A DNA stretch of 58,538 bases, taken from contig JAUWPC010000001.1 of NCBI GenBank assembly GCA_030611815.1, forward strand, positions 1-58,538, read 5' to 3'. This document shows positions 1-58,365 of this stretch, piece by piece (position 1 is the first letter of the stretch; every line of letters begins with the position of its first letter). The DNA is from Desulfobacteraceae bacterium (GTDB lineage: Bacteria; Desulfobacterota; DSM-4660; Desulfatiglandales; Desulfatiglandaceae). The notes beneath the pieces are model-generated. The model did not search any database. It was given only the letters and a program-made list of their open reading frames with translations, and was not told the origin of the DNA. The position numbers and the translations under genes were made by a program.

Positions 1-716
1 CATATCTTGAAACCAAATACCGTGACCCTGATTTTTTTGATTCTTCCCCTGCGTCGCCTGAGTTCAGGGGCTTTTTCCTTGGTCACCTTGCCCCGGCCCT
101 CGCATTGCTCGGTGGATTCAAGGTCGGAGGCATCAAGCAATACTTTGATTTTACGAGGAAAAAATGAGTTGGCCGCTAATATTGAAATGATTTTATTGAA
201 AACCCGGTCCAGGGTATTCTTGGCAATGGCGACAATAAACGATGCTATAAATTCCGGACAAACCGGCCCTCTTATCGCGGTGTTGTTTTTGTCCTCCCAG
301 TCCGTTTTCGATTTATCAAGGCTCCGCCGATTAACACCCTGTTTGACCTGATGGCCATTAAACCCTACGAGACGCATAAGGGATTGAGATTGCAAAAAAA
401 CCGGACCAGTATGCAGAAAAAACTTCAATCCTGCTACAATGCGCATCAAATAGATGAGCATAACCGCGGAAAAAGGAACTGGGCTATGCCGCTTGCGATG
501 GCGTCGCGGGGCAAGCTGTTCAAGAACTTTCATGATTCCGAGTTCGCGCAGGAAACAGAAAAATTCATCGAATAATCCGGCATCACCAAGCCCGTATATT
601 TCATGAACTTCCTGTTCATTTGCGAGTTTCTCAGCGATCCCGGCCTGATCTCTTTTGGCGGTGTGCCAGACAAGCCGCTTGAATATAGCTTCTGATGCGT
701 TTTTAATAGTATCCAT
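1..716 (-). mobile_element. DDE transposase gene (IS4-like), N-terminal 238 codons; runs off the left edge, so it is absent from the ORF track
   Basis: The minus frame from ATG 716-714 is open down to position 3 (checked triplet by triplet), with an in-frame upstream stop at 786-788. The translation is MDTIKNASEAIFKRLVWH...PFSAVMLIYLMRIVAGLKFFLHTGPVFLQSQSLMRLVGFNGHQVKQGV...KIKVLLDASDLEST. From memory this resembles the N-terminus and first catalytic Asp region of IS4-type transposases. Confidence 0.55.
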
Positions 717-1091
717 GGCGCCACCATACAGTACAAAAGGCTGCCTGTCAAGGGGCTGGGTCTCATAACATATTGATATTATTGACTAAATAAGCCTTCA
801 GATTTTGCTTTCCTTGCGTCTTGTGGAAGGTGAATGAGAGGGGGTATGTCAACCTAAAACGCCGTCGCAAGAAGGAGGCGTCAAGGGCTTTGTGGGGCCT
901 GATTTGAGCAAGGCTCAAGGTGAGAATGAATTTTTACTTCTGCGGTTTTGTTGAACTTTTTTTAGTTTTTCCCTAAAAATTATGGCTTACGTCAAATATC
1001 CAGAGGCGCATAAGACGTTGATTGATTTTAAACTGTATTTATGTCAAAATCAAATAAATGGGTTTTTTGTTAACTGTTAACGGAACGGCAT

Positions 1092-5597: not shown

Positions 5598-6527
5598 ATG
5601 AAAAGATATCGCGACTTCAATACTTACTTAAAAGAGATCTTCGGTGAACGTGTTCAGAAAATATCCCTGGATGCCGGGCTCGGCTGCCCCAACCGTGATG
5701 GAACCATATCCCGCAGTGGGTGTATTTTTTGTGATCGCCGGGGATCAGGCACCGGCGCCTTAATTAATCACGGCCTTTCCATTACACGGCAAATCGCTGA
5801 GGCCAAGGGTTTTATCCAAAAGCGCTACAAGGCCAAGAAGTTTATTGCCTACTTTCAATCCTTCACCAACACCTACGCCCCTGTTTCCCATTTGAAAGGC
5901 CTCTACGACGAGGCGTTAGCTCAAAAGGATATGTTGGGTCTTTCGGTGGCCACACGACCGGACTGCGTGGACAGGGAAATTCTGACGCTTCTAAGCTCTT
6001 ATCAGGCCGATCATCTTGTCTGGCTTGAATACGGCCTCCAATCTTCACACGACAAAACGCTTAAACTGATAAACCGTGGACATGACGTATCCTGTTTTGA
6101 ACAGAGCGTCCTGATGGCCGATGAATACCCAATAAATATATGCGCCCACATCATCCTGGGGCTTCCTGGTGAAGACCGTGAAATGATGCTGCAAACCGCC
6201 CGATTTCTCTCAAACCTCCCCATCCGGGGCGTAAAGATACACCTTCTTTATGTGGTCAAAGATACCCCGCTTTCCGAGCTTTACCATAGAGAAGGATTCC
6301 GATGCCTGAACAGAAAAGAATACGCAAACCTTGTAGTGGATTTCTTAGAGCTACTACCTCCGGACATGGTGATTCAAAGATTGACCGGTGACCCTATTCA
6401 GTCCGAGCTTGTGGCTCCCTTGTGGGCCAAGGAAAAGCAGTTAAACCTCAAACTCATCCAGACAACCCTTGAAAGGAGAGAGACATGGCAGGGAAGAGAT
6501 TACCGGAAATCTACTGCTGGAAAATAA
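5598..6527 (+). CDS. TIGR01212-type radical SAM protein
   Basis: N-terminal GLGCPNRDGTISRSGCIFCD cluster and about 300 aa, typical of this family. Confidence 0.8.
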   Translation: MKRYRDFNTYLKEIFGERVQKISLDAGLGCPNRDGTISRSGCIFCDRRGSGTGALINHGLSITRQIAEAKGFIQKRYKAKKFIAYFQSFTNTYAPVSHLKGLYDEALAQKDMLGLSVATRPDCVDREILTLLSSYQADHLVWLEYGLQSSHDKTLKLINRGHDVSCFEQSVLMADEYPINICAHIILGLPGEDREMMLQTARFLSNLPIRGVKIHLLYVVKDTPLSELYHREGFRCLNRKEYANLVVDFLELLPPDMVIQRLTGDPIQSELVAPLWAKEKQLNLKLIQTTLERRETWQGRDYRKSTAGK

Positions 6528-7009
6528 AAATTGATCGTCTGACCATACATTTAGCTTCCACAAGGAAAGGGGCGATTCGGGTCGGACTGGATTTGAACGG
6601 GCGGGGCGACTCCACTATCTTCTTCAGAAGGCGATTCCCAAACGCAAATCTTATAGAGGACCATCGTATGAATCAACCGCTCGTAGAAGCGATTGAGGCG
6701 GTTTTATCAAACAACCCAACAAAAAAACCTCTACCTTTAGATTTCTCACGCACCCCATTTCAATGGTCGGTATTGAAGGCGATCGCCACAATACCTTTTG
6801 GAGAAACAAGGACTTATGGGGAGGTGGCGTCAATGGTTGGGAAGCCCGGAGGTGCGAGGGCGGTGGGTCAGGTCATGGGCAAGAATCCCCTGCCCCTGAT
6901 TTTTCCATGACACAGAGTTGTTGCTGCCGGGGGACTCGGCGGTTTTGGAAGCGGGCTTAATGTCAAGAGGTATCTGTTAGGGCGTGAGGTGGAGTCTGAA
7001 ATTATGTAG
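6485..7009 (+). CDS. ogt: Methylated-DNA-protein-cysteine methyltransferase (Ogt/MGMT) with in-frame TGA (6908-6910) at the catalytic Cys position; possible selenoprotein or pseudogene
   Basis: TPFQWSVLKAIATIPFGETRTYGEVA...GKNPLPLIFP-TGA-HRVVAAGGLGGFGSGLNVKRYLLGREVESEIM-TAG. The canonical PCHRV motif is interrupted only by TGA, and the downstream frame is intact. Confidence 0.7.
6923..6943 (+). other. SECIS-like RNA hairpin 12 nt downstream of the in-frame UGA
   Basis: GCUGCCG (6923-6929) pairs with CGGCGGU (6937-6943), giving 7 bp including 2 G-U pairs. The loop is the G-rich GGGGACU. Confidence 0.45.
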
Positions 7010-7015
7010 CAACAC

Positions 7016-7561
7016 CTATTTCTGCGGGTCCCCCACCCTTTCGCGGAGGAGTTGATCCATGGCAATTTGATACTCTGCCGAACCGGGTAACATGGATTTT
7101 TTTTGTGCTAATTGGGCCACGATTTCCTCTTCGACCTTGTCGAACTGGATATGGCTCTGGCTTATGACCCGGTTTATGACATGGTATACCTCTTCATCGG
7201 TCCCATAAATCTCTATTACATGCGGATCATTGATAAGGACTTCCATAAGGTATTGTGTCATATATAGAGAATAGGGATTTGGACGGGGAACAAGGTTGCG
7301 AATGGGTGAGACAAAGTACTCGAAATCAAATTCCGAGCTGTGTAAGGCCTTTTTTAGGCCCTTGAGGATGGAATCGGTAATAGCAGCAGCATTGTCCGTT
7401 TCAATAATCTTTTCCTGCAGCAGAACCTGACGAAGCTTATTATGTATTTCAGGAAGCTTAAACCTGAAAAACCTCCCCTCTTGAAAGGCCCTCTGCTTCT
7501 CCTGCCTCTCAAGTCGATTAATTAACTTATTATGAACCCTGCCAGCATCCCTTGTATGCAT
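7016..7561 (-). CDS. Conserved hypothetical protein (possibly DUF507-like)
   Basis: 181-aa ORF with uninterrupted coding-like composition, in an operon with the two genes upstream. The family call is weak recollection only. Confidence 0.55.
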   Translation of the reverse strand: MHTRDAGRVHNKLINRLERQEKQRAFQEGRFFRFKLPEIHNKLRQVLLQEKIIETDNAAAITDSILKGLKKALHSSEFDFEYFVSPIRNLVPRPNPYSLYMTQYLMEVLINDPHVIEIYGTDEEVYHVINRVISQSHIQFDKVEEEIVAQLAQKKSMLPGSAEYQIAMDQLLRERVGDPQK

Positions 7562-8644: not shown

Positions 8645-8721
8645 TGGTGGCGGTGACTGGATTTGAACCAGTGACCCTGCGGATATGAGCCGCATGCTCT
8701 GACCACCTGAGCTACACCGCC
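8645..8721 (-). tRNA. tRNA-Met (anticodon CAT), elongator type; the Ile2-lysidine type cannot be excluded
   Basis: The reverse complement is GGCGGTGTAGCTCAGGTGGTCAGAGCATGCGGCTCATATCCGCAGGGTCACTGGTTCAAATCCAGTCACCGCCACCA. It folds as a full cloverleaf (acceptor GGCGGTG/CACCGCC, anticodon loop CTCATAT, T-arm ACTGG/CCAGT) with an encoded CCA. Confidence 0.9.
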
Positions 8722-17183: not shown

Positions 17184-20100
17184 ATGGTTTATACCACATC
17201 CCTTCCCAAAGAGACCCTTTGGCAAAAGGACCCTTTTCAATTTATAAACCCTGATGATTTTGATGCATTAGGGATCGATCCGGCATATGTCCCTATAGGG
17301 ACCTATGTCTCTTTCAAACACCCATCCCAACTACGGAGCAGATTTGGTGGCAATGCCTATGGGGTTGGCCTTTTTGAGGACTATGATCGACTCAAACCGA
17401 AAGAGATAAGACAACTCCATGCCATCAGCCTCGAAAATCCTGAAGAGATAAGGCTATTTTACAAGGAACTCAATGAAATATATCGCAAGATGGGGCTTTT
17501 GATCAGGTTTTCCAGCCTCGGGAAAAGGTATTACCTGATCCCCGTTCATCTCATATCCGATTCCCTTACCCACATCAGAGCCAGAGTAGACGAGATTAGC
17601 AAGATCGTCGGTTTCCACAGAAAAAAATATCTGAAAGAGTCTCATCGTATAGGTGTGTTGTCGCATCATGACGACTTAATCCTGAATGAGCTTTCTTTTC
17701 GCTTTATGGAGCACAATATTATCGTCTTGGACTCTCTCGATAAATTGTCTGGACTGAACCAGAGCCTGGACCTCGTCATACTGCCGAGCGATCTATACGA
17801 AATTGCCCTCATGGAGGAATTCAGCCCTCTTGCTCAAGAAACGCTTTCAAAAAGGCGGCTCGACCAGTATTGCACCAACATCCTCTGGAAGGTCCGCAAT
17901 TTGCTAAAAACAGACGGCGAAGTTTTTTTGATCGCAGACCATTTTACAGCCAAGACCAATCGAACCGCAGAACTCGTTTTCAAGACAGAGCAGGAAGAAA
18001 AAAACTTCGCGTTGTTCAGTCATATCTTTGGTACTAAGAAAAGATACAAGATCAAAGATCACACCGTCACAGCAAACATCTTTGATTTGCAGAAATATTT
18101 GAGTGGCTCTTATGTAGAGCAGGAAATTGTAGACACTTTACTTGGGGGGAAATCTCTTGAAAAAATGACCCTTGAGGAGATAAATGACCTGCCATATATC
18201 AATACGCAATTCGAAGATTGGCCTTTTTTTATTAACCAGGAAAAGGCCTGGCCCAAGCTCTTATCAGTTTTTTTTGACCGGGTATTTCTTAAGCCTGTGG
18301 TACCTGATCCAGTGAAAAAAGAGTGGAAAAAAAGATTTTCCTGTAGGGACTATTCCCCAAAATACATGATTATTTATTTGGGCCAGAAAAAACCTGTGAA
18401 GACAACTGTAGCGGATGTCAAAAAGGACGTCATTCGATCAAATCTGAGCGGTTGTCCCATTGAACTTGTCGCTGACTACAGGAACTCGTTCGAGTATCTG
18501 ATTCGGACCCTTACGATTGTTCAGGGGAGACTTAAAAGGGGGAGTTATCAGATTCTGCCGCAGGTTTTTATTGATCGCTTGAAATTGCCTTTGGAAAGCA
18601 AAAGCAGGAGATTCAGTGCACTTAACGATGTCATCAAACTCACAACAAAGATTAATCGCCTTGAAAAAATAAGGGGTTACCTGAACCCCGACAAGGTTGA
18701 AGGCTCAAAAACCAGACTGTTTGAAAATTTGGAGGCCCTGGCTCTCTTTGGGTTTACCCACAATGAACTGAAGGAAATAATCCTTATCGCCTTGGGACAT
18801 ACTGCCTTAGGCCGGATCATCTCCGGTAAGGTGACAGAAAAGGCCTTGAAACCTGTTTCTGACCTGGCCCGAACCTATGACCCGCAGCAGGCCCTTAACC
18901 TGCTCCGTTATTGCCGATTGATGACCTTGGCCGAAACAGAGGCGGCCCGTGGCTCTGAGCTTACTCATGAACAGCTCTCACAACTCTTTGACCTTTATGA
19001 ATCGACAGTAAGAGTTGTGGTCAATCAGGAATTGGACTGGGATCAGCTTTTGGATGAGAAAATAGCCTCCATAGGGGGGATACACAACAAAATTGTTCAA
19101 AAAATTCTCATGATGATGAATTATTTTGAGTTCCTCGATAACTGGGCTGAACTCAGGCAAAAAGGTGGGATGGAAAAAGAATCCTTGGCTGATTATGATG
19201 AACGGAGATTGGCCAGGATAGAGAACGTTATAAAACTTGTTAATAAAATGGAACAATTCGAAGAGATGTATCTCAAGTTCGACCGTTTGCAACTTCCCGT
19301 GTTTTACAGAAAATTTCTCGAATTGGAGTTCTATGGGACATGGCATCTCTTTGAGAGAATGGATAGTCAAAATGTCTTTGTGCTTCTCTGGATTGCAGTG
19401 AATGTAGCAGAGGGGGAAATCGTCAATTTTAACCCGGTGCTGGCTGATGTGGAGACAAGGGAAATCGAAGATCGGGTGAAAAAAATTGAGCAGGAGGCAT
19501 CGTCCGTCAATATTGAGCGCCTCGATCTGGCGATCCTCACACAGTTTAGAGATCAGTTGAGCCAAGAGAAATCCTCATTTATAATGGGGACCGGTTTTCA
19601 GCTAAGCATCTCATCAAAGACACAGGCATTGGAGATTGCCTATAAGGACATATCCCGGGATATTGAAAGGGTGGCCTCCCTGTCAAAAATAATATTTACC
19701 CGACCAATTTCCGAAATACCACAGGAAGAGCTGAAGAGCCTGGAGAAATTGTTTTCTGATCTTGAGACCTTTTTCCAAAGCCATCTCAGGGTCGTTAAGG
19801 AAATCGATTCTACATTGAAATTGCCTGCAAAGCAGAAGAGATGGTTTCAGGAGACCAAGGAACTTAGAGAAACCTTGAGATCAAATTTCCTGAGCGTCAT
19901 GTTTCGTCCTGAGCATCTATATGCTGATCTTGCCCTCCTTTTTTATAACGCGCCCTCTCTCTTGAATTTTCTGCTCCCCGAATTCATGGCCCTTCAGGAC
20001 CTCGATATCTCCGGACATATTTACTTAACTTCTCCTGTCACTAATTACATTCTTGCTGCAACAAGAAAATTCCAGGCCTTGATTACGCATGACAAGCAGG

Positions 20101-21893
20101 GTTTCCAGGACATAGACTTCCTGCACAGGTTGGCTCAAAAGGAATTTGGGCCCATGGCCACTGGCATCGTGGGACTCAGTGAACTACAGTTGGAAAACCT
20201 TGGGGAAATTATTGAGGGCTTTAGAAGCAACCCTGCCCTCGTTGACGCACTCGCCAAATCATTCATATTTCAGGATCTCGGAAGAGTGCCCGCTCTTAGA
20301 AAAAAGTACAGCGAAGAAATCAACCCGGCAGACCTGGCCGGGGCAGGCGCACTTTTTGTGGAAAGGGAAAAAATTGCTGAACGGTATGGTCTTAACGAAG
20401 ATGAAAAATCGTATCTTATTTTCTTGGTTAGGCATCACGCCTTGCTCCATCATACTGTACGGGGAGAAATATCGCTTTCTGCCATACAATCGATCCTCGA
20501 CCCCCATGACAAGGAACTCTTTGACGCATTTCTTGTATTTTCATTCATAATGCTTTCCGCAATCAGGGAAGATCTGATCCTTGAGGATTTAGCAGTCCGG
20601 TTTTTCCAGATAAGGGCCATGTGTCATAAGATAATTGATGGTGAAATGACCCTTGAAGGAGAGTTGAACAAGGTTTTTGAGGAGAGGGGTTCCCTTTTTT
20701 GCGCCCTTGAAAGGCACCAAACCGAAGGACTTCCTGAGGGTATTTCATTAGCTGATTACTTGGAATCAAAGGAATGGGAGGAAATAGATAGATCAAGAAT
20801 TCTCAGGGCTGGAAGGATGATTTTTGCGACAGAAAGGATCTTCAGGTTGCGGGGTATTAGGCATGTTGAATTCCAAGATCTCGCAAACCTTATGTTAGAG
20901 GTCCCCCTGAAATATATTCACAAGCAAAGAAAATTTCACAATGTGGGGTATGCGACTTTTGAAAAGGAGGTCTATGAGGCCTTTCGTATATACAGAACCC
21001 TTCAGAATTTAGCAGAGCCGGTGAGGCATTTCATGTTAGACCAACTCATCGGGGATAGAGTGCGTATCTTTGGATATGAGAAAGTAGGCGGTTATTTGAG
21101 CTACGAGAGCCAGGTTAAACTCCTCTTGGTGGGACTATTGGGAACAAAGAAGATCAGATCAAATGATGAGCCGGTCTCTCTAAGTTTTTTAGGCATGAGC
21201 GAAGAAATTGAAAAACGTTATGAGGCGGTTAATGACTGCCTGAACGAGCTTTCCATAGAGAAACTCTGGGAAGAGGGCTACCAGTTGACCCATCTATTTA
21301 GCGCCAAAACCGGGATCTTACTGAGGAAGGGAAGTTTTCCCAATTTTCTTTCCGTGGATTTTCAGGACCGCATATCTATCTCTCGTAAGATATCTTACCT
21401 GTCGTCTATTAATGATCTGGAACAACTGAAAAACTATTTTCATTACAGCTTAAGCTCTCTGCGAAAACATCTCTTTTATACGGATGATTATGAGCTTCTC
21501 CTTGAAAAGGCCTTTGAAAAGAGGATGACTGAAATTACGGATATGATATTGGACCGCGCAGAAAGACAGATGGGCCTGGTCAAAGATTTTGGAGATCTCC
21601 ATAATCTGGCAAATGACCTTCTTGATCGATCCTGGGATATCGGCTTTTCCCGAGAGCAGAAACACAGGCTGAACGATTTTTACGAGATGAGAAAGGATAC
21701 CTTGAAGAAGGAAAAGCTCTCGGAAATTGAAGGGATACTTGATAGCATCCATGATCCGCAGGAGTTGAAGGACTACTGGCAGAGCATCAAATGGTATCTG
21801 CAGGCAAACCGTCGATTTTTCGGAAAGGAGTTTGAAAATCTCATTGCCAAAAAGTTTGACGCTGTTAGCGCTAAGATAACTGGTAACCTTTGA
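17184..21893 (+). CDS. Very large (1569 aa) protein of unknown function with two degenerate HD/GlnD-like regions
   Basis: Single uninterrupted ORF with GGAGGA 11 nt upstream of the ATG. No Walker, nuclease or transmembrane motifs were seen. The regions LIALGHTALGR...LLRYCRLMTLAETEAA and FIFQDLGR...LIFLVRHHALLHH recall GlnD-type HD domains, but the HD dyad is substituted. Confidence 0.8.
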   Translation: MVYTTSLPKETLWQKDPFQFINPDDFDALGIDPAYVPIGTYVSFKHPSQLRSRFGGNAYGVGLFEDYDRLKPKEIRQLHAISLENPEEIRLFYKELNEIYRKMGLLIRFSSLGKRYYLIPVHLISDSLTHIRARVDEISKIVGFHRKKYLKESHRIGVLSHHDDLILNELSFRFMEHNIIVLDSLDKLSGLNQSLDLVILPSDLYEIALMEEFSPLAQETLSKRRLDQYCTNILWKVRNLLKTDGEVFLIADHFTAKTNRTAELVFKTEQEEKNFALFSHIFGTKKRYKIKDHTVTANIFDLQKYLSGSYVEQEIVDTLLGGKSLEKMTLEEINDLPYINTQFEDWPFFINQEKAWPKLLSVFFDRVFLKPVVPDPVKKEWKKRFSCRDYSPKYMIIYLGQKKPVKTTVADVKKDVIRSNLSGCPIELVADYRNSFEYLIRTLTIVQGRLKRGSYQILPQVFIDRLKLPLESKSRRFSALNDVIKLTTKINRLEKIRGYLNPDKVEGSKTRLFENLEALALFGFTHNELKEIILIALGHTALGRIISGKVTEKALKPVSDLARTYDPQQALNLLRYCRLMTLAETEAARGSELTHEQLSQLFDLYESTVRVVVNQELDWDQLLDEKIASIGGIHNKIVQKILMMMNYFEFLDNWAELRQKGGMEKESLADYDERRLARIENVIKLVNKMEQFEEMYLKFDRLQLPVFYRKFLELEFYGTWHLFERMDSQNVFVLLWIAVNVAEGEIVNFNPVLADVETREIEDRVKKIEQEASSVNIERLDLAILTQFRDQLSQEKSSFIMGTGFQLSISSKTQALEIAYKDISRDIERVASLSKIIFTRPISEIPQEELKSLEKLFSDLETFFQSHLRVVKEIDSTLKLPAKQKRWFQETKELRETLRSNFLSVMFRPEHLYADLALLFYNAPSLLNFLLPEFMALQDLDISGHIYLTSPVTNYILAATRKFQALITHDKQGFQDIDFLHRLAQKEFGPMATGIVGLSELQLENLGEIIEGFRSNPALVDALAKSFIFQDLGRVPALRKKYSEEINPADLAGAGALFVEREKIAERYGLNEDEKSYLIFLVRHHALLHHTVRGEISLSAIQSILDPHDKELFDAFLVFSFIMLSAIREDLILEDLAVRFFQIRAMCHKIIDGEMTLEGELNKVFEERGSLFCALERHQTEGLPEGISLADYLESKEWEEIDRSRILRAGRMIFATERIFRLRGIRHVEFQDLANLMLEVPLKYIHKQRKFHNVGYATFEKEVYEAFRIYRTLQNLAEPVRHFMLDQLIGDRVRIFGYEKVGGYLSYESQVKLLLVGLLGTKKIRSNDEPVSLSFLGMSEEIEKRYEAVNDCLNELSIEKLWEEGYQLTHLFSAKTGILLRKGSFPNFLSVDFQDRISISRKISYLSSINDLEQLKNYFHYSLSSLRKHLFYTDDYELLLEKAFEKRMTEITDMILDRAERQMGLVKDFGDLHNLANDLLDRSWDIGFSREQKHRLNDFYEMRKDTLKKEKLSEIEGILDSIHDPQELKDYWQSIKWYLQANRRFFGKEFENLIAKKFDAVSAKITGNL

Positions 21894-44235: not shown

Positions 44236-46725
44236 TTATTGGGACCGTGTCACATGCCGATAAAACTCAACAAATGATTTTCTCTGCCACTCCTGAAAAA
44301 ACAGATCGTTGTGCCCCCCCTCCACGCATTTAATCTGGTCCGGCGGCACCAATTCTTCTGCATGTTTCAGGGTAATATGGGCAGGAACCACTTGATCATA
44401 AGTTTGGAGGAAAAAACAGACTTTATACCCATAATCCTTCAGTTCTTTTAAAGGCGTTTTAATCCGGTAATGCACAATATCGTTAACTTCCCGCAGACTT
44501 CTAATAATATTGGTCAATGATTTTGCCGTCCACGTGCGAATTCCGACTTTCTCTTTTTTCGCAAAACCCACCTTGTCCGGATGACAAGATTTTGGATTCA
44601 AATACCCTTGAATAACGTGTCTCCATAAGAAGCGAAAAATGTGTTTTGGCATGTTTAAATTTTCATCGAATCCTGGGGGGTTAACCAAAATAATGCATTT
44701 CACAAAATCCTTATACCGATGTGGATCTTCCTGAAGCACTCTAACCAATTCAAACGCCGAGTAAGATTGTGCAACAATGTTGATTTCCTTAACCCCGTGG
44801 GAGTTTCGTAAATGCCCCATATAATCCTTTAACGCTTCCGGCCTTTCTTTCGCGGGGTTTATTCGAAAATCGAAGGCCCTCCCAATCGGGTTTTCAAGGG
44901 AAGCCACTTCGTTCCCGGCTTCCAAGAGAGATTTGATCAGTCTCTTTCGATCCGAAATGGGTATGCTTGTCCCACCAAGAAGCAATATCGGCTTATGCAG
45001 CTTTTCGCTGGGGACCTGGAAGCCATATTTCCGAAGATCAATACCATCGACGTAAAACGTTCCATACCCTTTTTGCCCTCGACGGTTTTTTTCCGGGACT
45101 ATTTGATATGGGCTGCTTAAGAGCTTGTCCTCGTCGCCAAGACTTACGTTTTCGGTGATAAACCGGCCTTCTTCCCGACGGGCAAAGTCATCGTAATCGA
45201 GACAAATTGAAATCAGCTCCATGGCGTAGAAGGTGCCTTTGCCAAGCAGTAGATAAGGCATCTTGTAAAGCGACCATGCGGCAGGTTTCACGCGTACTCT
45301 ACCACGCAAAAACAAGACAAGCAGGGCGAAAAGAAAGCCTCCAAGTGCGGGTAAGCGGAGATAGAAAGGGAGGGATAAGCGACCTCCAAATTTCAACAAC
45401 GGCTTTCCGCGTTCATACGACGAGCGGTAGTTGAAAATCGACCGGCAAAGCCATACATACATCTCTTCCAACTGTTCTTTCGCAATATCTTTTGGCTTAA
45501 ACACCACATTTCGAATGTTATACTTCTGAGGATTGCGTTTTAGCAGTCTTTTTTCTTTGACGAACTCATCACGCAGTTCCGTGCCAGGGTATGGCGTCAA
45601 AATATTCACCAGCACGTGCAAAAGATTATTTTCATCCAGAAAGGACTTTAAGGTTTTCGTGCTTTCCCATGTGGTTCCGTCTTCTCCGATAATCGTGGAA
45701 GCAATCACGCGGATACCGTGCTTCTGTATATTCCCTACCGCCTCGGCATACTGTTTTGGCACATTCATCTGCTTATTCATTTTCCTCAGAATATCAGGAT
45801 CAACGCTTTCGATGCCTACGAATACATGAAGGCAATTCGAGTTTGTCATGGCTTCCAGCAGCTCTTCGTCAAATCCGACCCCTATATTTACCTGCGTGTA
45901 CCACCCGATTATAATGTTATGGTCTTCCTGATACTTTGTTAAGGCATCGCATATGGCGAGTGCATGGTTTCGGTCTACGGCGAAGTTGTCGTCTATAAAG
46001 GCGATGTTACCCACAAATTTCTTGCACCGCCCGTCTTTCCTGTCATGAAATACAAACTCCTTCTTTCCCTTTAGCTTAAGTAGAGAATGCAATTCACCTA
46101 TTACCTGTTCCGGCGATTTCTTGCGTATTTTTCGTCCATTTTGTTTGGTAACCGTGCAGAACTTGCAATTGTACGGACACCCTCGGGTCGTTTGCAGGTA
46201 CGTGTATACATAACTGCCATTTTTCACCAAATCATACCTTGGAATTTTTGACCCTTCCAGATTGGGAAATCCATCGGCCTTATAGATTTGGTTTAATTTT
46301 CCGTTTTCAGTGTCAGAAATAACTGCCTCCCATATGTCCTCTGCCTCGCCAACCACAACGCTATCAACATATCGCAAAGCTTCATCCGGGCACATGGAAG
46401 CATGTATACCTCCCATTACCACTTTCGCACCGCGCTCTTTGAATTCGCTCGCGATTTCATACGCCCGTTTAGCTTTAAACGTCATTGAAGTAACGCCTAC
46501 TAAATCGACCGGCTCGTCAAAGTCGATTTTCTCTATTTCCTCGTCGATAATCTTCACCTCGTGATGAGAAGGCGTGTGTGCCGCCAGTGTAGGAAGGGCA
46601 AGGGGCATCCCCAAGGTGACTTTCTTAAAGGGCTGCATCGTAAATAGCGCGCTAGCCACGTCAGTTGTATATAAATCACGCCCTTCTTCGACGGCACAAC
46701 TAGGATTTATTAGAAATATTTTCAA
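44236..46725 (-). CDS. Fusion protein: B12-binding radical SAM enzyme, hydrophobic linker and alpha/beta-hydrolase domain
   Basis: (M)KIFLINP..., a B12-type Rossmann region (VGVTSM...GGIHAS) and a CxxxCxxC cluster (GCPYNCKFC). TM-like LPFYLRLPALGGFLFALLVLFL follows. The C-terminal ~280 aa carries PILLLGG, AQSYS (nucleophile elbow), TYDQVVP and GGHNDLF. A TTG start at 46725 follows GGGGAG. Confidence 0.8.
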   Translation of the reverse strand: MKIFLINPSCAVEEGRDLYTTDVASALFTMQPFKKVTLGMPLALPTLAAHTPSHHEVKIIDEEIEKIDFDEPVDLVGVTSMTFKAKRAYEIASEFKERGAKVVMGGIHASMCPDEALRYVDSVVVGEAEDIWEAVISDTENGKLNQIYKADGFPNLEGSKIPRYDLVKNGSYVYTYLQTTRGCPYNCKFCTVTKQNGRKIRKKSPEQVIGELHSLLKLKGKKEFVFHDRKDGRCKKFVGNIAFIDDNFAVDRNHALAICDALTKYQEDHNIIIGWYTQVNIGVGFDEELLEAMTNSNCLHVFVGIESVDPDILRKMNKQMNVPKQYAEAVGNIQKHGIRVIASTIIGEDGTTWESTKTLKSFLDENNLLHVLVNILTPYPGTELRDEFVKEKRLLKRNPQKYNIRNVVFKPKDIAKEQLEEMYVWLCRSIFNYRSSYERGKPLLKFGGRLSLPFYLRLPALGGFLFALLVLFLRGRVRVKPAAWSLYKMPYLLLGKGTFYAMELISICLDYDDFARREEGRFITENVSLGDEDKLLSSPYQIVPEKNRRGQKGYGTFYVDGIDLRKYGFQVPSEKLHKPILLLGGTSIPISDRKRLIKSLLEAGNEVASLENPIGRAFDFRINPAKERPEALKDYMGHLRNSHGVKEINIVAQSYSAFELVRVLQEDPHRYKDFVKCIILVNPPGFDENLNMPKHIFRFLWRHVIQGYLNPKSCHPDKVGFAKKEKVGIRTWTAKSLTNIIRSLREVNDIVHYRIKTPLKELKDYGYKVCFFLQTYDQVVPAHITLKHAEELVPPDQIKCVEGGHNDLFFQEWQRKSFVEFYRHVTRSQ

Positions 46726-47352
46726 TGTTAGGCTCCCCAAACGGAAACGACATTCAGTTCCCGAAAAAGATAGTTTTGCCAAGGAATATCGTGCGATGCG
46801 TAATCGAATTCAATACCCCTTGAACTCACCGCACTCCATTCACTGTTACCGATCGTACCTCGGACATTCCTGATTGCCAAGACTGCCCAATAAGATATGA
46901 CGCCCGATCAATCCTATATAAAAGATGGTGAACTATACAGAAAAATTCAGAAAAAGTAAAGATATAACTACTCAATTGACACAAAAGGATCCAAGGAATC
47001 AAGGTTTAGAGGGACCGGCATAAAATCACAGCTTTGTCTATATCCGAATTTGTGAAAAGCCATAAGGCATTAAAATACATCATATTATTGGTCACTGCTG
47101 TCCGTTAACTTTTTATTATGGGCTGTAACTTATTGATATACAGACCAATAATCTGCCTAACCCTGTGGAATGGTTATCCTTTTTTAATCATAACCTTCCC
47201 CTGCTGGTGGACTTTTGTGAAGAGGTCCGGGAGGAGGTATCGATCCAGCACCGCCTGAACAGGTCCCAGACCAGGGGGTTGGCTGAGTTACTTACCCCAG
47301 AAATTATAAACCAAAGATTGACATTGTCTCTATAATGCCATACACTACGAGT

Positions 47353-47634
47353 ATGGAAATATTTAGTTGGAATGCGGAAAAAAATGAAATTCTTGTCAGG
47401 GAAAGAGTAATTACATTTGAAGAAATAGTTCGTAAAATTGAATCCGGAGCTAAAGTTATTGAAACAGATCCTCCCAACAAGAAAAAATATCCAAATCAAA
47501 AAATACTGATAGTTGATATGGATGGATATGCCTATTTAGTTCCATGTGTTATAGATAAGAACGAGTATTTTCTTAAAACGATTATTCCCAGCAGGAAGGC
47601 GACCAAGAAATACCTTGGAGGAAAAAATGGCTAA
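47353..47634 (+). CDS. brnT: BrnT-family (DUF497) ribonuclease toxin
   Basis: MEIFSWNAEKNEILVRERVITFEEI...FLKTIIPSRKATKKY matches the BrnT pattern (F.WD..K...N..KHG.SFEE ... IISARKAT..E). Its stop overlaps the downstream start (ATGGCTAA). Confidence 0.72.
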   Translation: MEIFSWNAEKNEILVRERVITFEEIVRKIESGAKVIETDPPNKKKYPNQKILIVDMDGYAYLVPCVIDKNEYFLKTIIPSRKATKKYLGGKNG

Positions 47635-47905
47635 AAAACAAAAAAGAATAATCCTTGATGAATACGAGAAAGAAATCTTAGAGGCATACGAAGATGGGAG
47701 ATTAAAGCCCTCGAAATCGCAGGCTGATTACCAAGCAATAGCCAGGAACACAATGAAAAAGAACCGCAAGATCAATATAAGAATTTCAGAAAATGACCTT
47801 TCCGCCTTACAAAGAAGAGCTGCAAGGGAAGGCATCCCCTACCAAACATTAATCGGAAGTGTGCTTCACAAATACGCCAGTGGATTTTTAAAAGAAGCCA
47901 TATAA
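47627..47905 (+). CDS. brnA: BrnA/CopG-type antitoxin
   Basis: KINIRISENDLSALQRRAAREGIPYQTLIGSVLHKYASGFL is the typical RHH C-terminal module. GGAGGA lies upstream of the ATG. Confidence 0.72.
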   Translation: MAKKQKRIILDEYEKEILEAYEDGRLKPSKSQADYQAIARNTMKKNRKINIRISENDLSALQRRAAREGIPYQTLIGSVLHKYASGFLKEAI

Positions 47906-48041
47906 CAAAACCAACGCCACCAGTACCCAATCAGACGTTTGAACAGGTGTGCCGGTTCGCAGGGGCTGTCATCATTTTCCCCAAGTCGGGGGGCAGCTCA
48001 TCTCGCGGCCGTTATGCCGAAAAAACGAAACGAGAAATGAC

Positions 48042-53101: not shown

Positions 53102-54460
53102 TCACCCAGACCTGTATCTCTCACGGATTTGGGAGACTAAGCCCTTCAACCGTGGAAGCTCCCTTTTTTTGGATTCATCCCAGCAGGGCAAGAGGGTGTT
53201 GTTATGAAACAGAGGCTCCGATGCAAGGTCATATTTGGAGCAGGTCAGGGCCTTTTTCCACATAGGGGTGTGGGGAATGGGGGAATATTCTGATAAATAA
53301 GGAATGGCCCCATTGGCTCCTACAAAATTGATGGTTTCTATTACCGAATCTACCGTTTGTCCCGGTAACCCGATCAGGATGTAAGCCCCGATCTGTCTGG
53401 TGTCAAAACCGGCCTTGAGCAGGTTATAGATAGCACGCTCGAAATCACCTTTGGAGAGCTTGTTATCCAGATCCCGATGGAGCGAGATATCAGAGGTCTC
53501 TAAACCGAGACGAATCGTTTGAAAACCGGTCCTATGCATGAGCCTCGCGATCTCTCCTGTGATCTCTCTCACATGGAGGGCGTTGGGCGTGTGAAATCTG
53601 AGATTCAGGTCGAGACGTGTAAGGCCTTCCAGAAAAAACCCCACATGGTTTTCAGGTGCCACTAAGAGCGCATCGTCATAAAAGGCAAAGTCCTGAACTG
53701 CAAACTCCTTGTGCCAAAAAACGATCTCTTCTAAGACCTCATCCGGTTCTCTCCTGATCAGATTTGGCTGTAAAAAATGACTGGCACAGTACTGACATCT
53801 GTACGGGCACCCTAATGATGTCATAACGCAGACGTACTCAATCCGTGTCAACAGATCAAATGCAGGATATGTTAGCCGGCCGACATCAGGGCGGGTTGCC
53901 GGGACATGGATGCCATTTTCATCCAAGGCGGCTAAAAGGGATGCGGCACCGTGGCCGGAAACCACGCTGTCTGCCCCCGAACTCATGAGGGCATGGTCAC
54001 GGCAAAGCCTTGCATAGATCCCCCCGAGAATGACGGGAACCCCGGGATGGACCCTTTTAGCTAAGCTAACGGCCTTTCTAACGCCCGGGTACCAGTAGGT
54101 CATGAGAGAGGTTATCAGAATCGCAGATGGTTTCCTGATCTTTCTCAGCTCTTGTTCAAATACTTCGGGTAAAAGCCCGTAGCGACTGTAAGGCCTCGGA
54201 ATATCCTGTAACGGGGAGGGCTTTGGGACTACCTCCCTCCAGAATTTGCCGGTTCCATACAGGCGCCTCTTAGGAGGTGTCAGGGAACTGTTCCCTGGCA
54301 TGTTAGGATGGTGTACGTCTAAGCAGTCTATAAGATATATATCAAACCCACTCTCCCTGAGCCAACCTGCAAGATATAGAAGGCCGAGCGGCTTGGACCA
54401 GAAGTCATAGGCCGCAAAGTCGTAAATCCAGGGATTGATTAAAATGAGTGTGGGTTTCAT
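53102..54460 (-). CDS. B12-binding domain radical SAM protein
   Basis: MKPTLILINPW...; LGCPYRCQYC cluster. Confidence 0.85.
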   Translation of the reverse strand: MKPTLILINPWIYDFAAYDFWSKPLGLLYLAGWLRESGFDIYLIDCLDVHHPNMPGNSSLTPPKRRLYGTGKFWREVVPKPSPLQDIPRPYSRYGLLPEVFEQELRKIRKPSAILITSLMTYWYPGVRKAVSLAKRVHPGVPVILGGIYARLCRDHALMSSGADSVVSGHGAASLLAALDENGIHVPATRPDVGRLTYPAFDLLTRIEYVCVMTSLGCPYRCQYCASHFLQPNLIRREPDEVLEEIVFWHKEFAVQDFAFYDDALLVAPENHVGFFLEGLTRLDLNLRFHTPNALHVREITGEIARLMHRTGFQTIRLGLETSDISLHRDLDNKLSKGDFERAIYNLLKAGFDTRQIGAYILIGLPGQTVDSVIETINFVGANGAIPYLSEYSPIPHTPMWKKALTCSKYDLASEPLFHNNTLLPCWDESKKRELPRLKGLVSQIRERYRSG

Positions 54461-57189: not shown

Positions 57190-58068
57190 CTATTCCTCGC
57201 CGTTGAGCGCCTTAAGGGCAAGAAACAGCGCCTGGGTCCCTGATCGGCCATGTCCCTGCGCTTGGACCGCTATGTACAGTTGCTGGACCAGGGCGAGTCC
57301 CGGAAGAGATAGGCCGACGGCGGCGGATTCTTCCAATGCGATCTTCATGTCTTTGATAAAATGCTCCACAAAGAAACCGGGGCCGAAATCTCCCTTGACA
57401 ACGCGTGGTCCTAAGATGTTTATGGCCCACGAACTGGCCGCGCCCTTACCGACAATGTCGATGACCTGTTGCATATCAAGCCCCTGTTTCGCCGCATAGA
57501 GGAGGCACTCACATGCCCCTATCATGTTTCCGGCAACAAGGATCTGATTGGCTACCTTGGTGTGCTGACCGGCGCCGGGTCCGCCCATGTACGAGATGGT
57601 TGGCCCCATGAGTTGAAAAAGGGGAAATACTTTATCGAAAATCTCTTTTTTCCCGCCGACCATAATAGCGAGTTTAGCATCTCTTGCGCCGACATCGCCG
57701 CCGGAAACAGGCGCATCAAGGGATTCGATACCTTTTTTCGCGGATTCCTCGAACAGGGTCTTGGCCAGACTGGGCTGACTCGTTGTCATATCGACCACAA
57801 CGCTGCAGGCGGGTTTTCCACTCAGGATACCCTTCTCTCCCAAGTAGACCTCCCGGACATCCGAGGGAAGCCCGACGATAGTGAAGACGATGTCGGCGTT
57901 TGCCACCACCTCTGCCGGTGAATCATACCAGCGAGCGCCCTTCTCGATCAGATTTTCCGCCTTCTTCTTGGTACGGCTGAACACCGAGAGATCATGACCG
58001 GCCTTCTGAAGATGCCCTGCCATAGAGGCGCCCATGACGCCAGTGCCAATCCATCCGATATCCATCAT
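57190..58068 (-). CDS. NAD(P)-dependent 3-hydroxyisobutyrate dehydrogenase-family oxidoreductase
   Basis: IGWIGTGVMGASMAGHL Rossmann motif and HIBADH-type length and core. Confidence 0.85.
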   Translation of the reverse strand: MMDIGWIGTGVMGASMAGHLQKAGHDLSVFSRTKKKAENLIEKGARWYDSPAEVVANADIVFTIVGLPSDVREVYLGEKGILSGKPACSVVVDMTTSQPSLAKTLFEESAKKGIESLDAPVSGGDVGARDAKLAIMVGGKKEIFDKVFPLFQLMGPTISYMGGPGAGQHTKVANQILVAGNMIGACECLLYAAKQGLDMQQVIDIVGKGAASSWAINILGPRVVKGDFGPGFFVEHFIKDMKIALEESAAVGLSLPGLALVQQLYIAVQAQGHGRSGTQALFLALKALNGEE

Positions 58069-58278
58069 CTTAAACTCCTTTATGAAAAACTTGGCCTTTC
58101 TTTCAGACAGTGCGCCTCATGGACCGGAGGCTGGTTCAGTCCCGCCTGAGGGATCAGGCCCTCTGGGCCAGAATTTATATTTTAAAGAGGGGGCGGAGCC
58201 GATTAAAAGAAAACCCTCTGTTAGGAGAGGTCCCAGGATGCAAACCATATGTCTATGGCGATTCTTACCCTTTTGATG

Positions 58279-58328
58279 TGGTGGGCGGTGGGGGATTTGA
58301 ACCCCCGACTTCCACCGTGTGAGGATGG
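58279..58328 (-). other. 3' portion of a tRNA (anticodon arm CAC = Val, T-arm, acceptor 3' strand, CCA); probable integrase attachment-site remnant
   Basis: The reverse complement is CCATCCTCACACGGTGGAAGTCGGGGGTTCAAATCCCCCACCGCCCACCA. The 26 nt upstream (GGGTGAAAGAGGGTAGCCTGTGAGTG) give neither a matching acceptor 5' strand nor a D-arm. Confidence 0.6.
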
Positions 58329-58365
58329 CACTCACAGGCTACCCTCTTTCACCCTATCATTTCAG

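What the first reader, a model, noticed from the sequence alone, without database searches (positions are those of the whole stretch)
6485..7009. TGA replaces the catalytic cysteine codon of Ogt/MGMT and is followed by a SECIS-like hairpin: candidate selenocysteine DNA alkyltransferase
The listed ORF ends ...GKNPLPLIFP at TGA 6908-6910. Reading on in the same frame gives HRVVAAGGLGGFGSGLNVKRYLLGREVESEIM, then TAG at 7007-7009. Ogt/MGMT proteins have the invariant alkyl-acceptor motif P-C-H-R-V, followed by a Gly-rich stretch and K..LL..E. The TGA therefore sits exactly on the catalytic Cys codon, and everything after it is still conserved in frame. That pattern fits a Sec/Cys pair better than decay. 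Twelve nt after the UGA a hairpin can form between GCUGCCG (6923-6929) and CGGCGGU (6937-6943), with loop GGGGACU. The G-rich apical loop begins about 20 nt after the UGA, which is the geometry of bacterial SECIS elements. A selenolate acceptor in a suicide alkyltransferase would be mechanistically notable. I vaguely recall that MGMT-like Sec candidates appeared in metagenomic selenoproteome surveys, but I cannot verify this. I know of no characterised example.
Basis: partly seen in the sequence, partly recalled or inferred. Interest (0 to 1): 0.85.

Follow-up and report, generated by a model that had tools for sequence, protein, structure and literature searches.

The report
Selenocysteine-encoding Ogt/MGMT DNA-repair gene
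This is a genuine DNA-repair alkyltransferase gene whose catalytic cysteine codon is a UGA that is almost certainly read as selenocysteine with the help of a hairpin just downstream, but this kind of selenoprotein has been predicted in genome surveys since 2005, so it is a new member of a known (still biochemically untested) family.

Summary
ORF 6485-6910 ends at TGA 6908-6910. The frame continues for 32 codons (HRVVAAGGLGGF...K.YLL..E) to TAG 7007-7009, and the hairpin 6923-6943 lies 12 nt after the UGA.

Comparative evidence supports selenocysteine decoding rather than decay or error:
- 41 species-level genomes, nearly all Desulfobacterota MAGs, carry TGA at this codon.
- The downstream frame is open in all of them. 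pN/pS is 0.256 downstream against 0.251 upstream.
- Relatives have Cys at this column, and it aligns with the catalytic Cys of solved OGT structures.
- The hairpin meets all four published bacterial SECIS criteria.
- It is kept in TGA-type genes (88.6% of stem cells paired; 38/43 pass). It is absent from the closest Cys-type orthologues encoding nearly the same peptide (53.5%; 0/11 pass).
- Stem-paired wobble bases are nearly fixed only in TGA-type genes.

The window holds no selA, selB, selD, tRNA-Sec or second selenoprotein. The rest of the genome could not be reached.

The family is not new. A Sec-containing MGMT was predicted in Carboxydothermus hydrogenoformans in 2005 and is listed in later selenoproteome surveys. 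Engineered human AGT with Sec145 is active. I found no study characterising a natural Sec-MGMT.

Verdict: real, well supported, and a new member of a known predicted family. Interest is moderate to low.

The parts
6485..6907 (+). Codons 1-141 of the ogt/MGMT gene. This covers the N-terminal domain and the first part of the DNA-binding/active-site domain, ending ...NPLPLIFP.
   Evidence: ORF list. The Pfam PF01035 match starts at residue 91. All homologues start MAG... and are colinear.
6908..6910 (+). In-frame UGA at the catalytic position (codon 142), inferred to encode selenocysteine. It is the P-[U/C]-H-R-V acceptor residue.
   Evidence: Cys occupies this column in full-length relatives and in solved OGT structures. 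TGA is kept in 41 species genomes and in 60 of the 120 closest homologues.
6911..7009 (+). The C-terminal 32 codons (HRVVAAGGLGGFGSGLNVKRYLLGREVESEIM) plus the TAG stop at 7007-7009. The stretch carries His143 and Glu168, the equivalents of human AGT His146 and Glu172.
   Evidence: The frame is open in 40/40 TGA-type genes, whereas 33/40 and 23/40 have stops in the other two frames. pN/pS is 0.256 here against 0.251 upstream.
6923..6943 (+). SECIS-type hairpin inside the coding sequence. The stem is 6923-6931 paired with 6935-6943, the apical loop is GGA (6932-6934), and the loop begins 21 nt after the UGA. It is built from the Ala-Ala-Gly-Gly-Leu-Gly-Gly codons.
   Evidence: Energy is -12.8 kcal/mol and all four published bSECIS criteria are met. 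In 38 TGA-type genes 88.6% of stem cells are paired (0/500 shuffles reach this), against 53.5% in 11 close Cys-type genes. Wobble bases are constrained only at paired positions.
5598..6527 (+). Upstream radical-SAM gene of the tRNA-modification MnmL/YtqA family. Its end overlaps the ogt start by 43 nt. It is genomic context, probably co-transcribed, and is not part of the Sec mechanism.
   Evidence: NCBIfam TIGR01212, E=9e-109. The same gene order and overlap occur in TGA-type and Cys-type loci.

Best explanation
Window 6485-7009 (+) is one intact 174-codon gene for an O6-alkylguanine-DNA alkyltransferase (Ogt/MGMT). Its alkyl-acceptor residue is selenocysteine, encoded by UGA 6908-6910.

Inferred mechanism: during translation the hairpin at 6923-6943, a bacterial SECIS element embedded in the Ala-Ala-Gly-Gly-Leu-Gly-Gly codons, recruits SelB with Sec-tRNA(Sec). 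The ribosome then inserts Sec instead of terminating. The full-length protein would bind alkylated DNA and transfer the alkyl group from O6-alkylguanine irreversibly to the selenolate, as Cys-type Ogt does with its thiolate.

Shown here:
- The TGA sits at the Cys column.
- The downstream frame is under the same purifying selection as the upstream frame.
- The hairpin is conserved and selected specifically where the codon is TGA.

Inferred, not shown:
- SelB/tRNA-Sec-dependent insertion in this organism.
- Actual selenium incorporation.
- Alkyl transfer to Se by the natural protein.
For: 1. Family and position.
- PF01035 E=6.6e-29 and TIGR00589 E=1.4e-26, both spanning the TGA.
- The best solved relative is M. 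tuberculosis OGT (E=7e-27), whose PCHRV Cys aligns to the TGA.
- Full-length relatives read ...LIFPCHRVV....

2. Not an accident.
- A codon-level DNA pattern found TGA at this codon in 41 species-representative genomes.
- 60 of the 120 closest database homologues are called as exactly 141 aa.

3. The downstream sequence is translated.
- The frame is open for 27-51 codons in the 46 of 48 loci where the next stop could be read; L031 has none within the 80 codons translated and L002 ends at the contig edge. The HRVV..GG.GGF..G...K.YLL..E core is conserved and the tails diverge.
- pN/pS is 0.256 downstream and 0.251 upstream. In-frame stops occur in 0/40 genes, against 33/40 and 23/40 in the other frames.

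4. SECIS.
- The window hairpin has a 9-bp stem, loop GGA, 21-nt spacing and -12.8 kcal/mol. It meets the published model (for the criteria, for the test).
- 38/43 TGA-type genes pass, 0/11 close Cys-type and 8/39 other Cys-type.
- 88.6% of stem cells are paired in TGA-type genes (0/500 shuffles; slid controls 28-55%), with compensatory changes at two stem pairs. Close Cys-type genes reach 53.5%, equal to the shuffle mean.
- The codon-7 wobble is C in 41/41 TGA-type genes and 7/21 Cys-type. Wobbles of unpaired codons 4, 5 and 9 vary freely within the same TGA-type genes.

5. TGA is an ordinary stop in this genome: it ends 16 of 38 long ORFs.

6. Chemistry is feasible. Engineered human AGT with Sec145 protects E. 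coli from MNNG (PMC4150793).

7. Taxon. Thermodesulfobacteriota (formerly Deltaproteobacteria) are among the most selenoprotein-rich bacteria (PMC13188914).

8. Precedent. The same kind of gene was predicted in C. hydrogenoformans (CHY0809) and in metagenomes.
Against: - No selA, selB, selD, tRNA-Sec or second selenoprotein gene lies in the 58.5-kb window.
- No tRNA-Sec lies in 43 related loci.
- The rest of the genome could not be examined.
- The hairpin in this one sequence is not significant on its own (z=-1.52).
- Part of its pairing follows automatically from GCN/GGN codons. High-GC Cys-type genes sometimes form it by composition (8/39).
- TGA-type genes form one clade, so some shared features could be inherited. 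The free variation at unpaired wobble sites argues against this for the stem.
- There is no protein-level evidence for any natural Sec-MGMT.
Confidence: 0.88

Rival explanations
1. Pseudogene or truncated product: a nonsense mutation killed the active site, and only a 141-aa fragment, or nothing, is made.
For: Gene callers annotate the 141-aa form everywhere. No Sec machinery is visible in the window. One relative (L014) has a 7-codon deletion downstream of the TGA that removes half of the hairpin, and it may really be decaying.
Against: The same stop is kept in 41 species. The downstream frame shows the same pN/pS as the upstream frame (0.256 against 0.251) and no in-frame stops in 40/40 genes. 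A structure-preserving wobble constraint lies just after the stop. A decaying tail would show none of these.
Confidence: 0.04
2. Sequencing or assembly error: the true codon is TGC or TGT.
For: A single base separates TGA from TGC or TGT. Nested Cys-type relatives with TGC exist. Raw reads for the window were not available.
Against: Independent assemblies from many samples and pipelines show TGA. These are the 41 genomes, and clusters such as P0001 (93% identity) and P0002 (90% identity, read on 18 contigs). The closest relatives (L003-L006, L008, L037) all have TGA together with the same hairpin.
Confidence: 0.02
3. UGA is read through as a standard amino acid. This could occur by genome-wide reassignment (code 4 or 25), or by hairpin-stimulated near-cognate read-through inserting Trp. 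Trp would give P-W-H-R-V, which I recall from my own knowledge as the motif of alkyltransferase-like (ATL) damage sensors.
For: A downstream hairpin could in principle stimulate read-through. ATL proteins are distant relatives (PDB 3gva, E=1.2e-7).
Against: TGA terminates 16 of 38 long ORFs in the window, so the codon is not reassigned. The hairpin has the spacing, the loop G's and the stability of SelB-type SECIS elements. The protein matches true OGTs far better than ATLs (7e-27 against 1e-7). The interchange seen in the clade is TGA with TGC (Cys), never TGG.
Confidence: 0.04

Closest known systems
Predicted Sec-containing methylated-DNA-protein-cysteine methyltransferase. First reported as CHY0809 / ABB14497.1 of Carboxydothermus hydrogenoformans (Wu et al. 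2005, PMC1287953). Later listed in the Olavius-symbiont and GOS selenoproteomes (PMC1976440, PMC2398784) and in the 2022 and 2026 reviews (PMC9312934, PMC13188914).
   Same: Both are PF01035 alkyltransferases with UGA in place of the catalytic Cys codon and a stem-loop immediately downstream. Both were predicted by Sec/Cys homology and have not been verified experimentally.
   Different: The host lineage here is Desulfobacterota, not a thermophilic Firmicute. In 2005 the C. hydrogenoformans case was described as unique and recent, whereas here the TGA form fills a broad clade of at least 41 species. The rooting of the clade among deltaproteobacterial Cys forms suggests an independent origin, but this is inference only.
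Cys-type Ogt/MGMT: E. coli Ogt and Ada-C, M. tuberculosis OGT (PDB 4wxc, 4bhb), human AGT (1eh6, 1t38)
   Same: Same fold family and same motifs. The correspondences to human AGT are Tyr111 (Tyr114), Arg125 (Arg128), Asn134 (Asn137), P-x-H-R-V, and Glu168 (Glu172). These come from the sequence and from hAGT numbering as cited in PMC4150793. The expected single-turnover alkyl transfer is also the same.
   Different: The acceptor is encoded by UGA (Sec) instead of Cys, and the mRNA carries a SECIS hairpin that close Cys-type orthologues lack.
Engineered human AGT C145U (Haruna et al. 2014, PMC4150793)
   Same: Sec sits at the acceptor position of an AGT. The variant protects E. coli from MNNG, which shows that a selenolate can do the chemistry.
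   Different: It is artificial, made by UAG/EF-Tu-dependent insertion without a SECIS. In that study Sec made Asn137 dispensable, whereas in the natural clade the equivalent Asn134 is still invariant.
Bacterial SECIS elements (bSECISearch consensus; E. coli fdhF)
   Same: It is a hairpin within the coding sequence just 3' of UGA. It has a 3-9 nt apical loop starting with G followed by G or U, a 4-16 bp stem, 16-37 nt spacing and an energy of -7.5 kcal/mol or lower. All of these are met.
   Different: The sequence is specific to this gene family (stem GCYGCCGG/YCGGCGGU). There is no Rfam model for it. SelB binding was not tested.

Membership tests
Ogt/MGMT O6-alkylguanine-DNA alkyltransferase (PF01035 / TIGR00589) | Significant match to the DNA-binding/active-site domain model, above the curated cut-off | tested here: met
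   PF01035 scores 100 bits against a cut-off of 27. TIGR00589 scores 92.3 bits against a cut-off of 46.4. Both used the read-through protein with C at position 142.
Ogt/MGMT O6-alkylguanine-DNA alkyltransferase (PF01035 / TIGR00589) | Acceptor motif P-C-H-R-V with a nucleophilic residue at the C position | tested here: inconclusive
   The motif is P-[UGA]-H-R-V. The codon aligns to the catalytic Cys of solved OGTs and of relatives. Whether a nucleophile (Sec) is actually inserted is inferred, not shown.
Ogt/MGMT O6-alkylguanine-DNA alkyltransferase (PF01035 / TIGR00589) | Supporting active-site and DNA-binding residues: the equivalents of hAGT Tyr114, Arg128, Asn137, His146 and Glu172 | tested here: met
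   Y111, R125 and N134 are invariant in alignment A1. H143 and E168 are present downstream of the TGA and conserved in 40 or more TGA-type genes. The hAGT numbering is taken from PMC4150793.
Ogt/MGMT O6-alkylguanine-DNA alkyltransferase (PF01035 / TIGR00589) | Stoichiometric alkyl transfer from O6-alkylguanine DNA to the protein | not testable with these tools
   This needs a biochemical assay. The only indirect support is that engineered hAGT U145 is active in vivo.
Bacterial selenoprotein gene (UGA-Sec decoding) | In-frame UGA aligned with Cys in homologues | tested here: met
   (60 TGA-type and 60 Cys-type among the 120 closest homologues).
Bacterial selenoprotein gene (UGA-Sec decoding) | Protein-level conservation continues downstream of the UGA | tested here: met
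   pN/pS is 0.256 downstream and 0.251 upstream. In-frame stops occur in 0/40 genes.
Bacterial selenoprotein gene (UGA-Sec decoding) | [quoted passage not shown] | tested here: met
   The window has loop GGA, a 9-bp stem, 21-nt spacing and -12.8 kcal/mol. 38/43 TGA-type genes pass against 0/11 close Cys-type.
Bacterial selenoprotein gene (UGA-Sec decoding) | selA, selB, selD and tRNA-Sec present in the same genome | not testable with these tools
   None are in the window, and no tRNA-Sec is in the related loci. The window's contig is not on record, so it could not be extended. The phylum is reported as selenoprotein-rich.
Bacterial selenoprotein gene (UGA-Sec decoding) | Selenium demonstrably incorporated (75Se labelling or mass spectrometry) | not testable with these tools
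   This is an experiment. I found no report for any natural Sec-MGMT.
Alkyltransferase-like (ATL) proteins | The catalytic Cys is replaced by a sense codon for a non-nucleophile (Trp or Ala), and there is no N-terminal domain | tested here: not met
   The position is TGA, not TGG or GCN. An N-terminal domain of about 90 aa is present. The PDB ATL match is weak (E=1.2e-7) against 7e-27 for OGT. The ATL motif itself is recalled from my own knowledge.

The most novel reading that the evidence does not exclude
In a large Desulfobacterota clade (at least 41 species) the selenocysteine form is the standard, long-maintained Ogt, not a recent oddity. This would make it a selenoprotein that is consumed stoichiometrically, one Sec per lesion repaired, unlike the catalytic use of Sec in other selenoproteins. 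Such a persistent cost would imply a real functional gain. Candidates are much faster or broader alkyl-adduct repair, activity in sulfidic, reducing or low-pH conditions, or, most speculatively, a Se-alkyl adduct that can be removed so the protein turns over. None of these properties was tested here. Only the breadth and age of the clade are shown.
Probability: 0.12. Interest if true: 0.7.

Novelty: new member of a known kind. Interest (0 to 1): 0.35.

Why it matters
The practical point is annotation. Gene callers truncate this gene at 141 aa in the databases: 60 of the 120 closest homologues are called that way. As called, the product lacks the acceptor residue and the 32 C-terminal residues, so these organisms may wrongly be judged to have no working Ogt.

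The biological point is that MGMT is one of the few non-redox, single-turnover proteins predicted to use selenocysteine. The data here show that the Sec form is not a one-off. It is a broad clade under purifying selection in Desulfobacterota, with a well-defined SECIS built from the Ala-Ala-Gly-Gly-Leu-Gly-Gly codons. Cys forms nested in the clade still carry the fossil hairpin.

That gives ready natural Sec/Cys pairs for testing what a selenolate acceptor buys a suicide repair protein. The family itself has been in selenoproteome lists since 2005, so the finding confirms and extends known work rather than opening something new.

Tried and rejected
1. Sec machinery in the window. ARAGORN and Rfam found only tRNA-Met. 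A Pfam scan of 40 ORFs found no SelA, SelB or SelD.

2. A second selenoprotein in the window. I screened all six frames for long TAA/TAG-bounded frames with an internal TGA and inspected the ORF-poor gaps. Apart from ogt, the candidates I inspected were neighbouring genes in the same frame, opposite-strand frames or upstream non-coding sequence (for example 57190-58338); the rest were judged from the gene map alone.

3. Extending the window to reach the rest of the genome. One end protein is known only from a 2.6-kb contig, and the other is not on record.

4. tRNA-Sec in 43 related loci. None was found, only a syntenic tRNA-Met.

5. The hydrogenase gene next to ogt in the complete genome CP070710.1 as possible independent evidence of Sec use. 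It is a Cys-type NiFe large subunit (DPCVACGVH) beside a masked stretch, so this was a dead end.

6. A permissive Rfam scan of 6800-7100 gave only chance hits to eukaryotic lncRNA models. Rfam has no model for this element.

7. Single-sequence folding significance is weak (z=-1.52), so I did not rely on it.

8. I did not compare with C. hydrogenoformans CHY0809, because its sequence was not obtainable with the scans that remained.
Full report
**Observation**

- ATG 6485 opens a 141-codon ORF ending ...GKNPLPLIFP at TGA 6908-6910.
- The same frame continues as HRVVAAGGLGGFGSGLNVKRYLLGREVESEIM to TAG 7007-7009.
- The arms GCTGCCG (6923-6929) and CGGCGGT (6937-6943) flank GGGGACT, and the stem starts 12 nt after the UGA.
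- Folding adds two more pairs, giving a 9-bp stem (6923-6931 paired with 6935-6943) with loop GGA.

With Cys substituted at the TGA, the read-through protein matches Pfam PF01035 across residues 91-168 (E=6.6e-29) and NCBIfam TIGR00589. Its best solved relative is Mycobacterium tuberculosis OGT (E=7e-27), whose PCHRV cysteine aligns with the TGA.

In this single sequence the hairpin is not significant: z=-1.52, and 19 of 200 shuffles fold as well.

**Is the TGA real and conserved?**

A protein search returned dozens of homologues called at exactly 141 aa, spanning 57-93% identity. It also returned full-length forms of about 172 aa at 52-61% identity. In an alignment the full-length forms read ...LIFPCHRVV..., with Cys at the column where the short forms stop.

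I then searched one genome per species with a codon-degenerate DNA pattern for P-L-[IV]-F-P-TGA-H-R-V-V. It hit 41 genomes, nearly all Desulfobacterota MAGs such as Desulfobacteraceae, Desulfatiglandales and Ca. Desulfacyla. Independent assemblies of close relatives show the same codon. This excludes a sequencing error or a private nonsense mutation.

TGA ends 16 of the 38 long ORFs in the window, so the codon is not reassigned genome-wide.

**Is the sequence after the TGA translated?**

Wherever the next stop could be read (46 of 48 loci), the frame stays open for 27-51 codons after the TGA. L031 shows no stop within the 80 codons translated, and L002 ends at the contig edge. The frame encodes the conserved HRVV..GG.GGF..G...K.YLL..E core, followed by divergent tails and a stop.

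Over 780 pairs of 40 TGA-type genes:

| Measure | 24 codons downstream | 24 codons upstream |
|---|---|---|
| pS | 0.657 | 0.721 |
| pN | 0.168 | 0.181 |
| pN/pS | 0.256 | 0.251 |

No gene has an in-frame stop in the downstream stretch. In the two other frames, 33/40 and 23/40 genes have one. The tail is therefore under the same protein-level selection as the body of the gene. That is incompatible with a pseudogene or a truncated product.

**Is the hairpin a SECIS?**

The published bacterial SECIS model (PMC13188914, Fig. 2A) has four requirements:
- a 3-9 nt apical loop with a 4-16 bp stem;
- a G in the first two loop positions;
- 16-37 nt between the UGA and the loop;
- an energy of -7.5 kcal/mol or lower.

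The window hairpin has loop GGA, a 9-bp stem, 21-nt spacing and -12.8 kcal/mol, so it meets all four.

A strict, bulge-free implementation of these criteria gave:

| Gene set | Pass |
|---|---|
| TGA-type | 38/43 |
| Closest Cys-type orthologues | 0/11 |
| Other, mostly high-GC, Cys-type genes | 8/39 |

The stem pairs wobble positions of the Ala, Gly and Leu codons with fixed first and second positions. This makes a sharp test possible.
- In TGA-type genes the paired wobbles are nearly fixed. The codon-7 wobble is C in 41/41 genes, the codon-10 wobble is C in 37/41, and the codon-11 wobble is C or T in 39/41.
- In the same genes the wobbles of unpaired codons 4, 5 and 9 use all four bases.
- Cys-type genes encoding a matching peptide show no such constraint. 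Codon 7 is C in only 7/21.

On a gapless alignment of 38 distinct TGA-type genes, 88.6% of stem cells pair. No shuffle out of 500 reaches this, and slid controls give 28-55%. Both-side changes occur at three pairs: G-C to A-U at columns 19/33, G-C to C-G or A-U at columns 22/30, and G-U to U-G at columns 16/36. On 11 close Cys-type genes only 53.5% pair, the same as their shuffles.

So the structure is selected only where the codon is TGA. Rfam has no matching model.

**Evolution**

Among the 120 closest homologues, 60 stop at the Sec column and 60 have Cys. A neighbour-joining tree of the N-terminal 141 residues places the TGA forms in essentially one clade, rooted among Cys forms. A few Cys forms are nested inside, and at least four state changes are needed.

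Three nested Cys forms (L108-L110, codon TGC) still keep 7-8 of the 9 stem pairs; two of them (L109, L110) keep the full mnmL-ogt arrangement with the 43-nt overlap. This looks like a fossil SECIS left after a recent TGA-to-TGC switch.

The tree is a quick distance tree and should not be over-read.

**What could not be shown**

The window contains no selA, selB, selD or tRNA-Sec, and no second selenoprotein gene. None of 43 related loci has a tRNA-Sec. The window's contig is not on record, so I could not look further into the genome. A hydrogenase gene next to ogt in a complete relative genome turned out to be Cys-type.

Genome-level Sec competence therefore rests on two things: the comparative signature above, and the report that Thermodesulfobacteriota are among the most selenoprotein-rich bacteria.

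**Mechanism**

The best-supported reading is SelB/SECIS-dependent insertion of Sec at codon 142. This would give a 174-residue Ogt whose selenolate accepts the alkyl group from O6-alkylguanine in a single-turnover reaction.

The residues around the active site are intact. Tyr111, Arg125, Asn134, His143 and Glu168 correspond to human AGT Tyr114, Arg128, Asn137, His146 and Glu172.

A selenolate can do this chemistry. Engineered human AGT with Sec145 protects E. coli from MNNG, and it tolerates loss of Asn137, which the Cys form does not (PMC4150793). In the natural clade the equivalent Asn134 remains invariant.

**Comparison with what is known**

A Sec-containing methylated-DNA-protein-cysteine methyltransferase was predicted in Carboxydothermus hydrogenoformans in 2005 (CHY0809). 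It was described then as unique and probably recent (PMC1287953). The family was later found in the Olavius-symbiont metagenome and in the GOS data. It appears in the 2022 and 2026 inventories of prokaryotic selenoproteins, outside the block headed "Experimentally verified". I found no experimental study of a natural member.

The window's gene is thus a new member of a known, predicted family. What this analysis adds:
- the size and age of the Desulfobacterota clade;
- the anatomy of its SECIS;
- the Sec-specific wobble constraint;
- the nested Cys forms with fossil hairpins.

Whether this clade and CHY0809 share an origin was not tested.

**Verdict**

Confidence that this is a Sec-decoded Ogt is about 0.88. 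It is not novel in kind, and interest is 0.35.

Noticed in passing
window 17184-21893 (+): A 1569-aa ORF, the largest in the window, has no Pfam match at E<=1e-5. Its function is unknown.
   Followed up: no
window 5598-6527 (+) with 6485; also L001, L003-L006, L109, L110: The upstream radical-SAM gene is a tRNA-modification MnmL/YtqA equivalog (TIGR01212, E=9e-109). Its 3' end overlaps the ogt start by 43 nt. The arrangement and the overlap are identical in TGA-type and Cys-type loci, which suggests translational coupling of a tRNA-modification enzyme with a DNA-repair protein.
   Followed up: partly
window 8645-8721 (-); most of L003-L047: A tRNA-Met(CAT) gene lies within a few kb of ogt, downstream of it in the window, L003 and other loci in ogt orientation, in most related loci. 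This shows long-range synteny across the clade: ogt, DUF507, zinc ribbon, a hypothetical gene, tRNA-Met, then ETF.
   Followed up: no
L109 1-1956 and L110 1-1984: In two nested Cys-type loci the mnmL-ogt pair sits next to a LexA gene, a Y-family polymerase (IMS) gene and a PHP/DNA-pol-III-alpha-like gene. By their Pfam domains these look like an SOS mutagenesis cassette. The window does not have this neighbourhood.
   Followed up: no
L014 (JAFDHL010000261.1), about 849 onward: One TGA-type relative reads UHRVVAFSSGLAVKRYLL. It lacks seven codons (the GG.GGF segment), which removes the 3' half of the hairpin. It may be a decaying copy or an assembly artefact.
   Followed up: no
L023, L033, L046: Three bins labelled Bacteroidales, Anaerolineales and Pseudomonadota carry TGA-type ogt sequences nearly identical to that of a Desulfobacteraceae bin (L024). 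They share the ...GREK tail and the same hairpin. Mis-binned contigs seem more likely than transfer between phyla.
   Followed up: no
window 47194-47902 (+): A 1.1-kb stretch (46782-47949) has no long ORF but holds two small overlapping ORFs of about 146 and 116 codons. They are not annotated, and I did not identify them.
   Followed up: no
window 3-785 (-): A 261-codon open frame runs off the left end of the window. It was not scanned against any library.
   Followed up: no
alignment A2, column 27 (window 6934): The wobble base of the loop Gly codon (codon 9) is U in 20/41 TGA-type genes but in only 2/21 Cys-type genes. This gives a G-G-U loop. From memory, it resembles the G-U contact motif of the E. 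coli fdhF SECIS loop. It is suggestive only.
   Followed up: partly
window 44236-46782 (-) and 53102-54460 (-): The window holds two B12-binding radical-SAM genes (848 aa and 452 aa). The 452-aa gene ends in TGA with 72 further open codons, but the extension overlaps a gene on the opposite strand. I judged it to be chance.
   Followed up: partly
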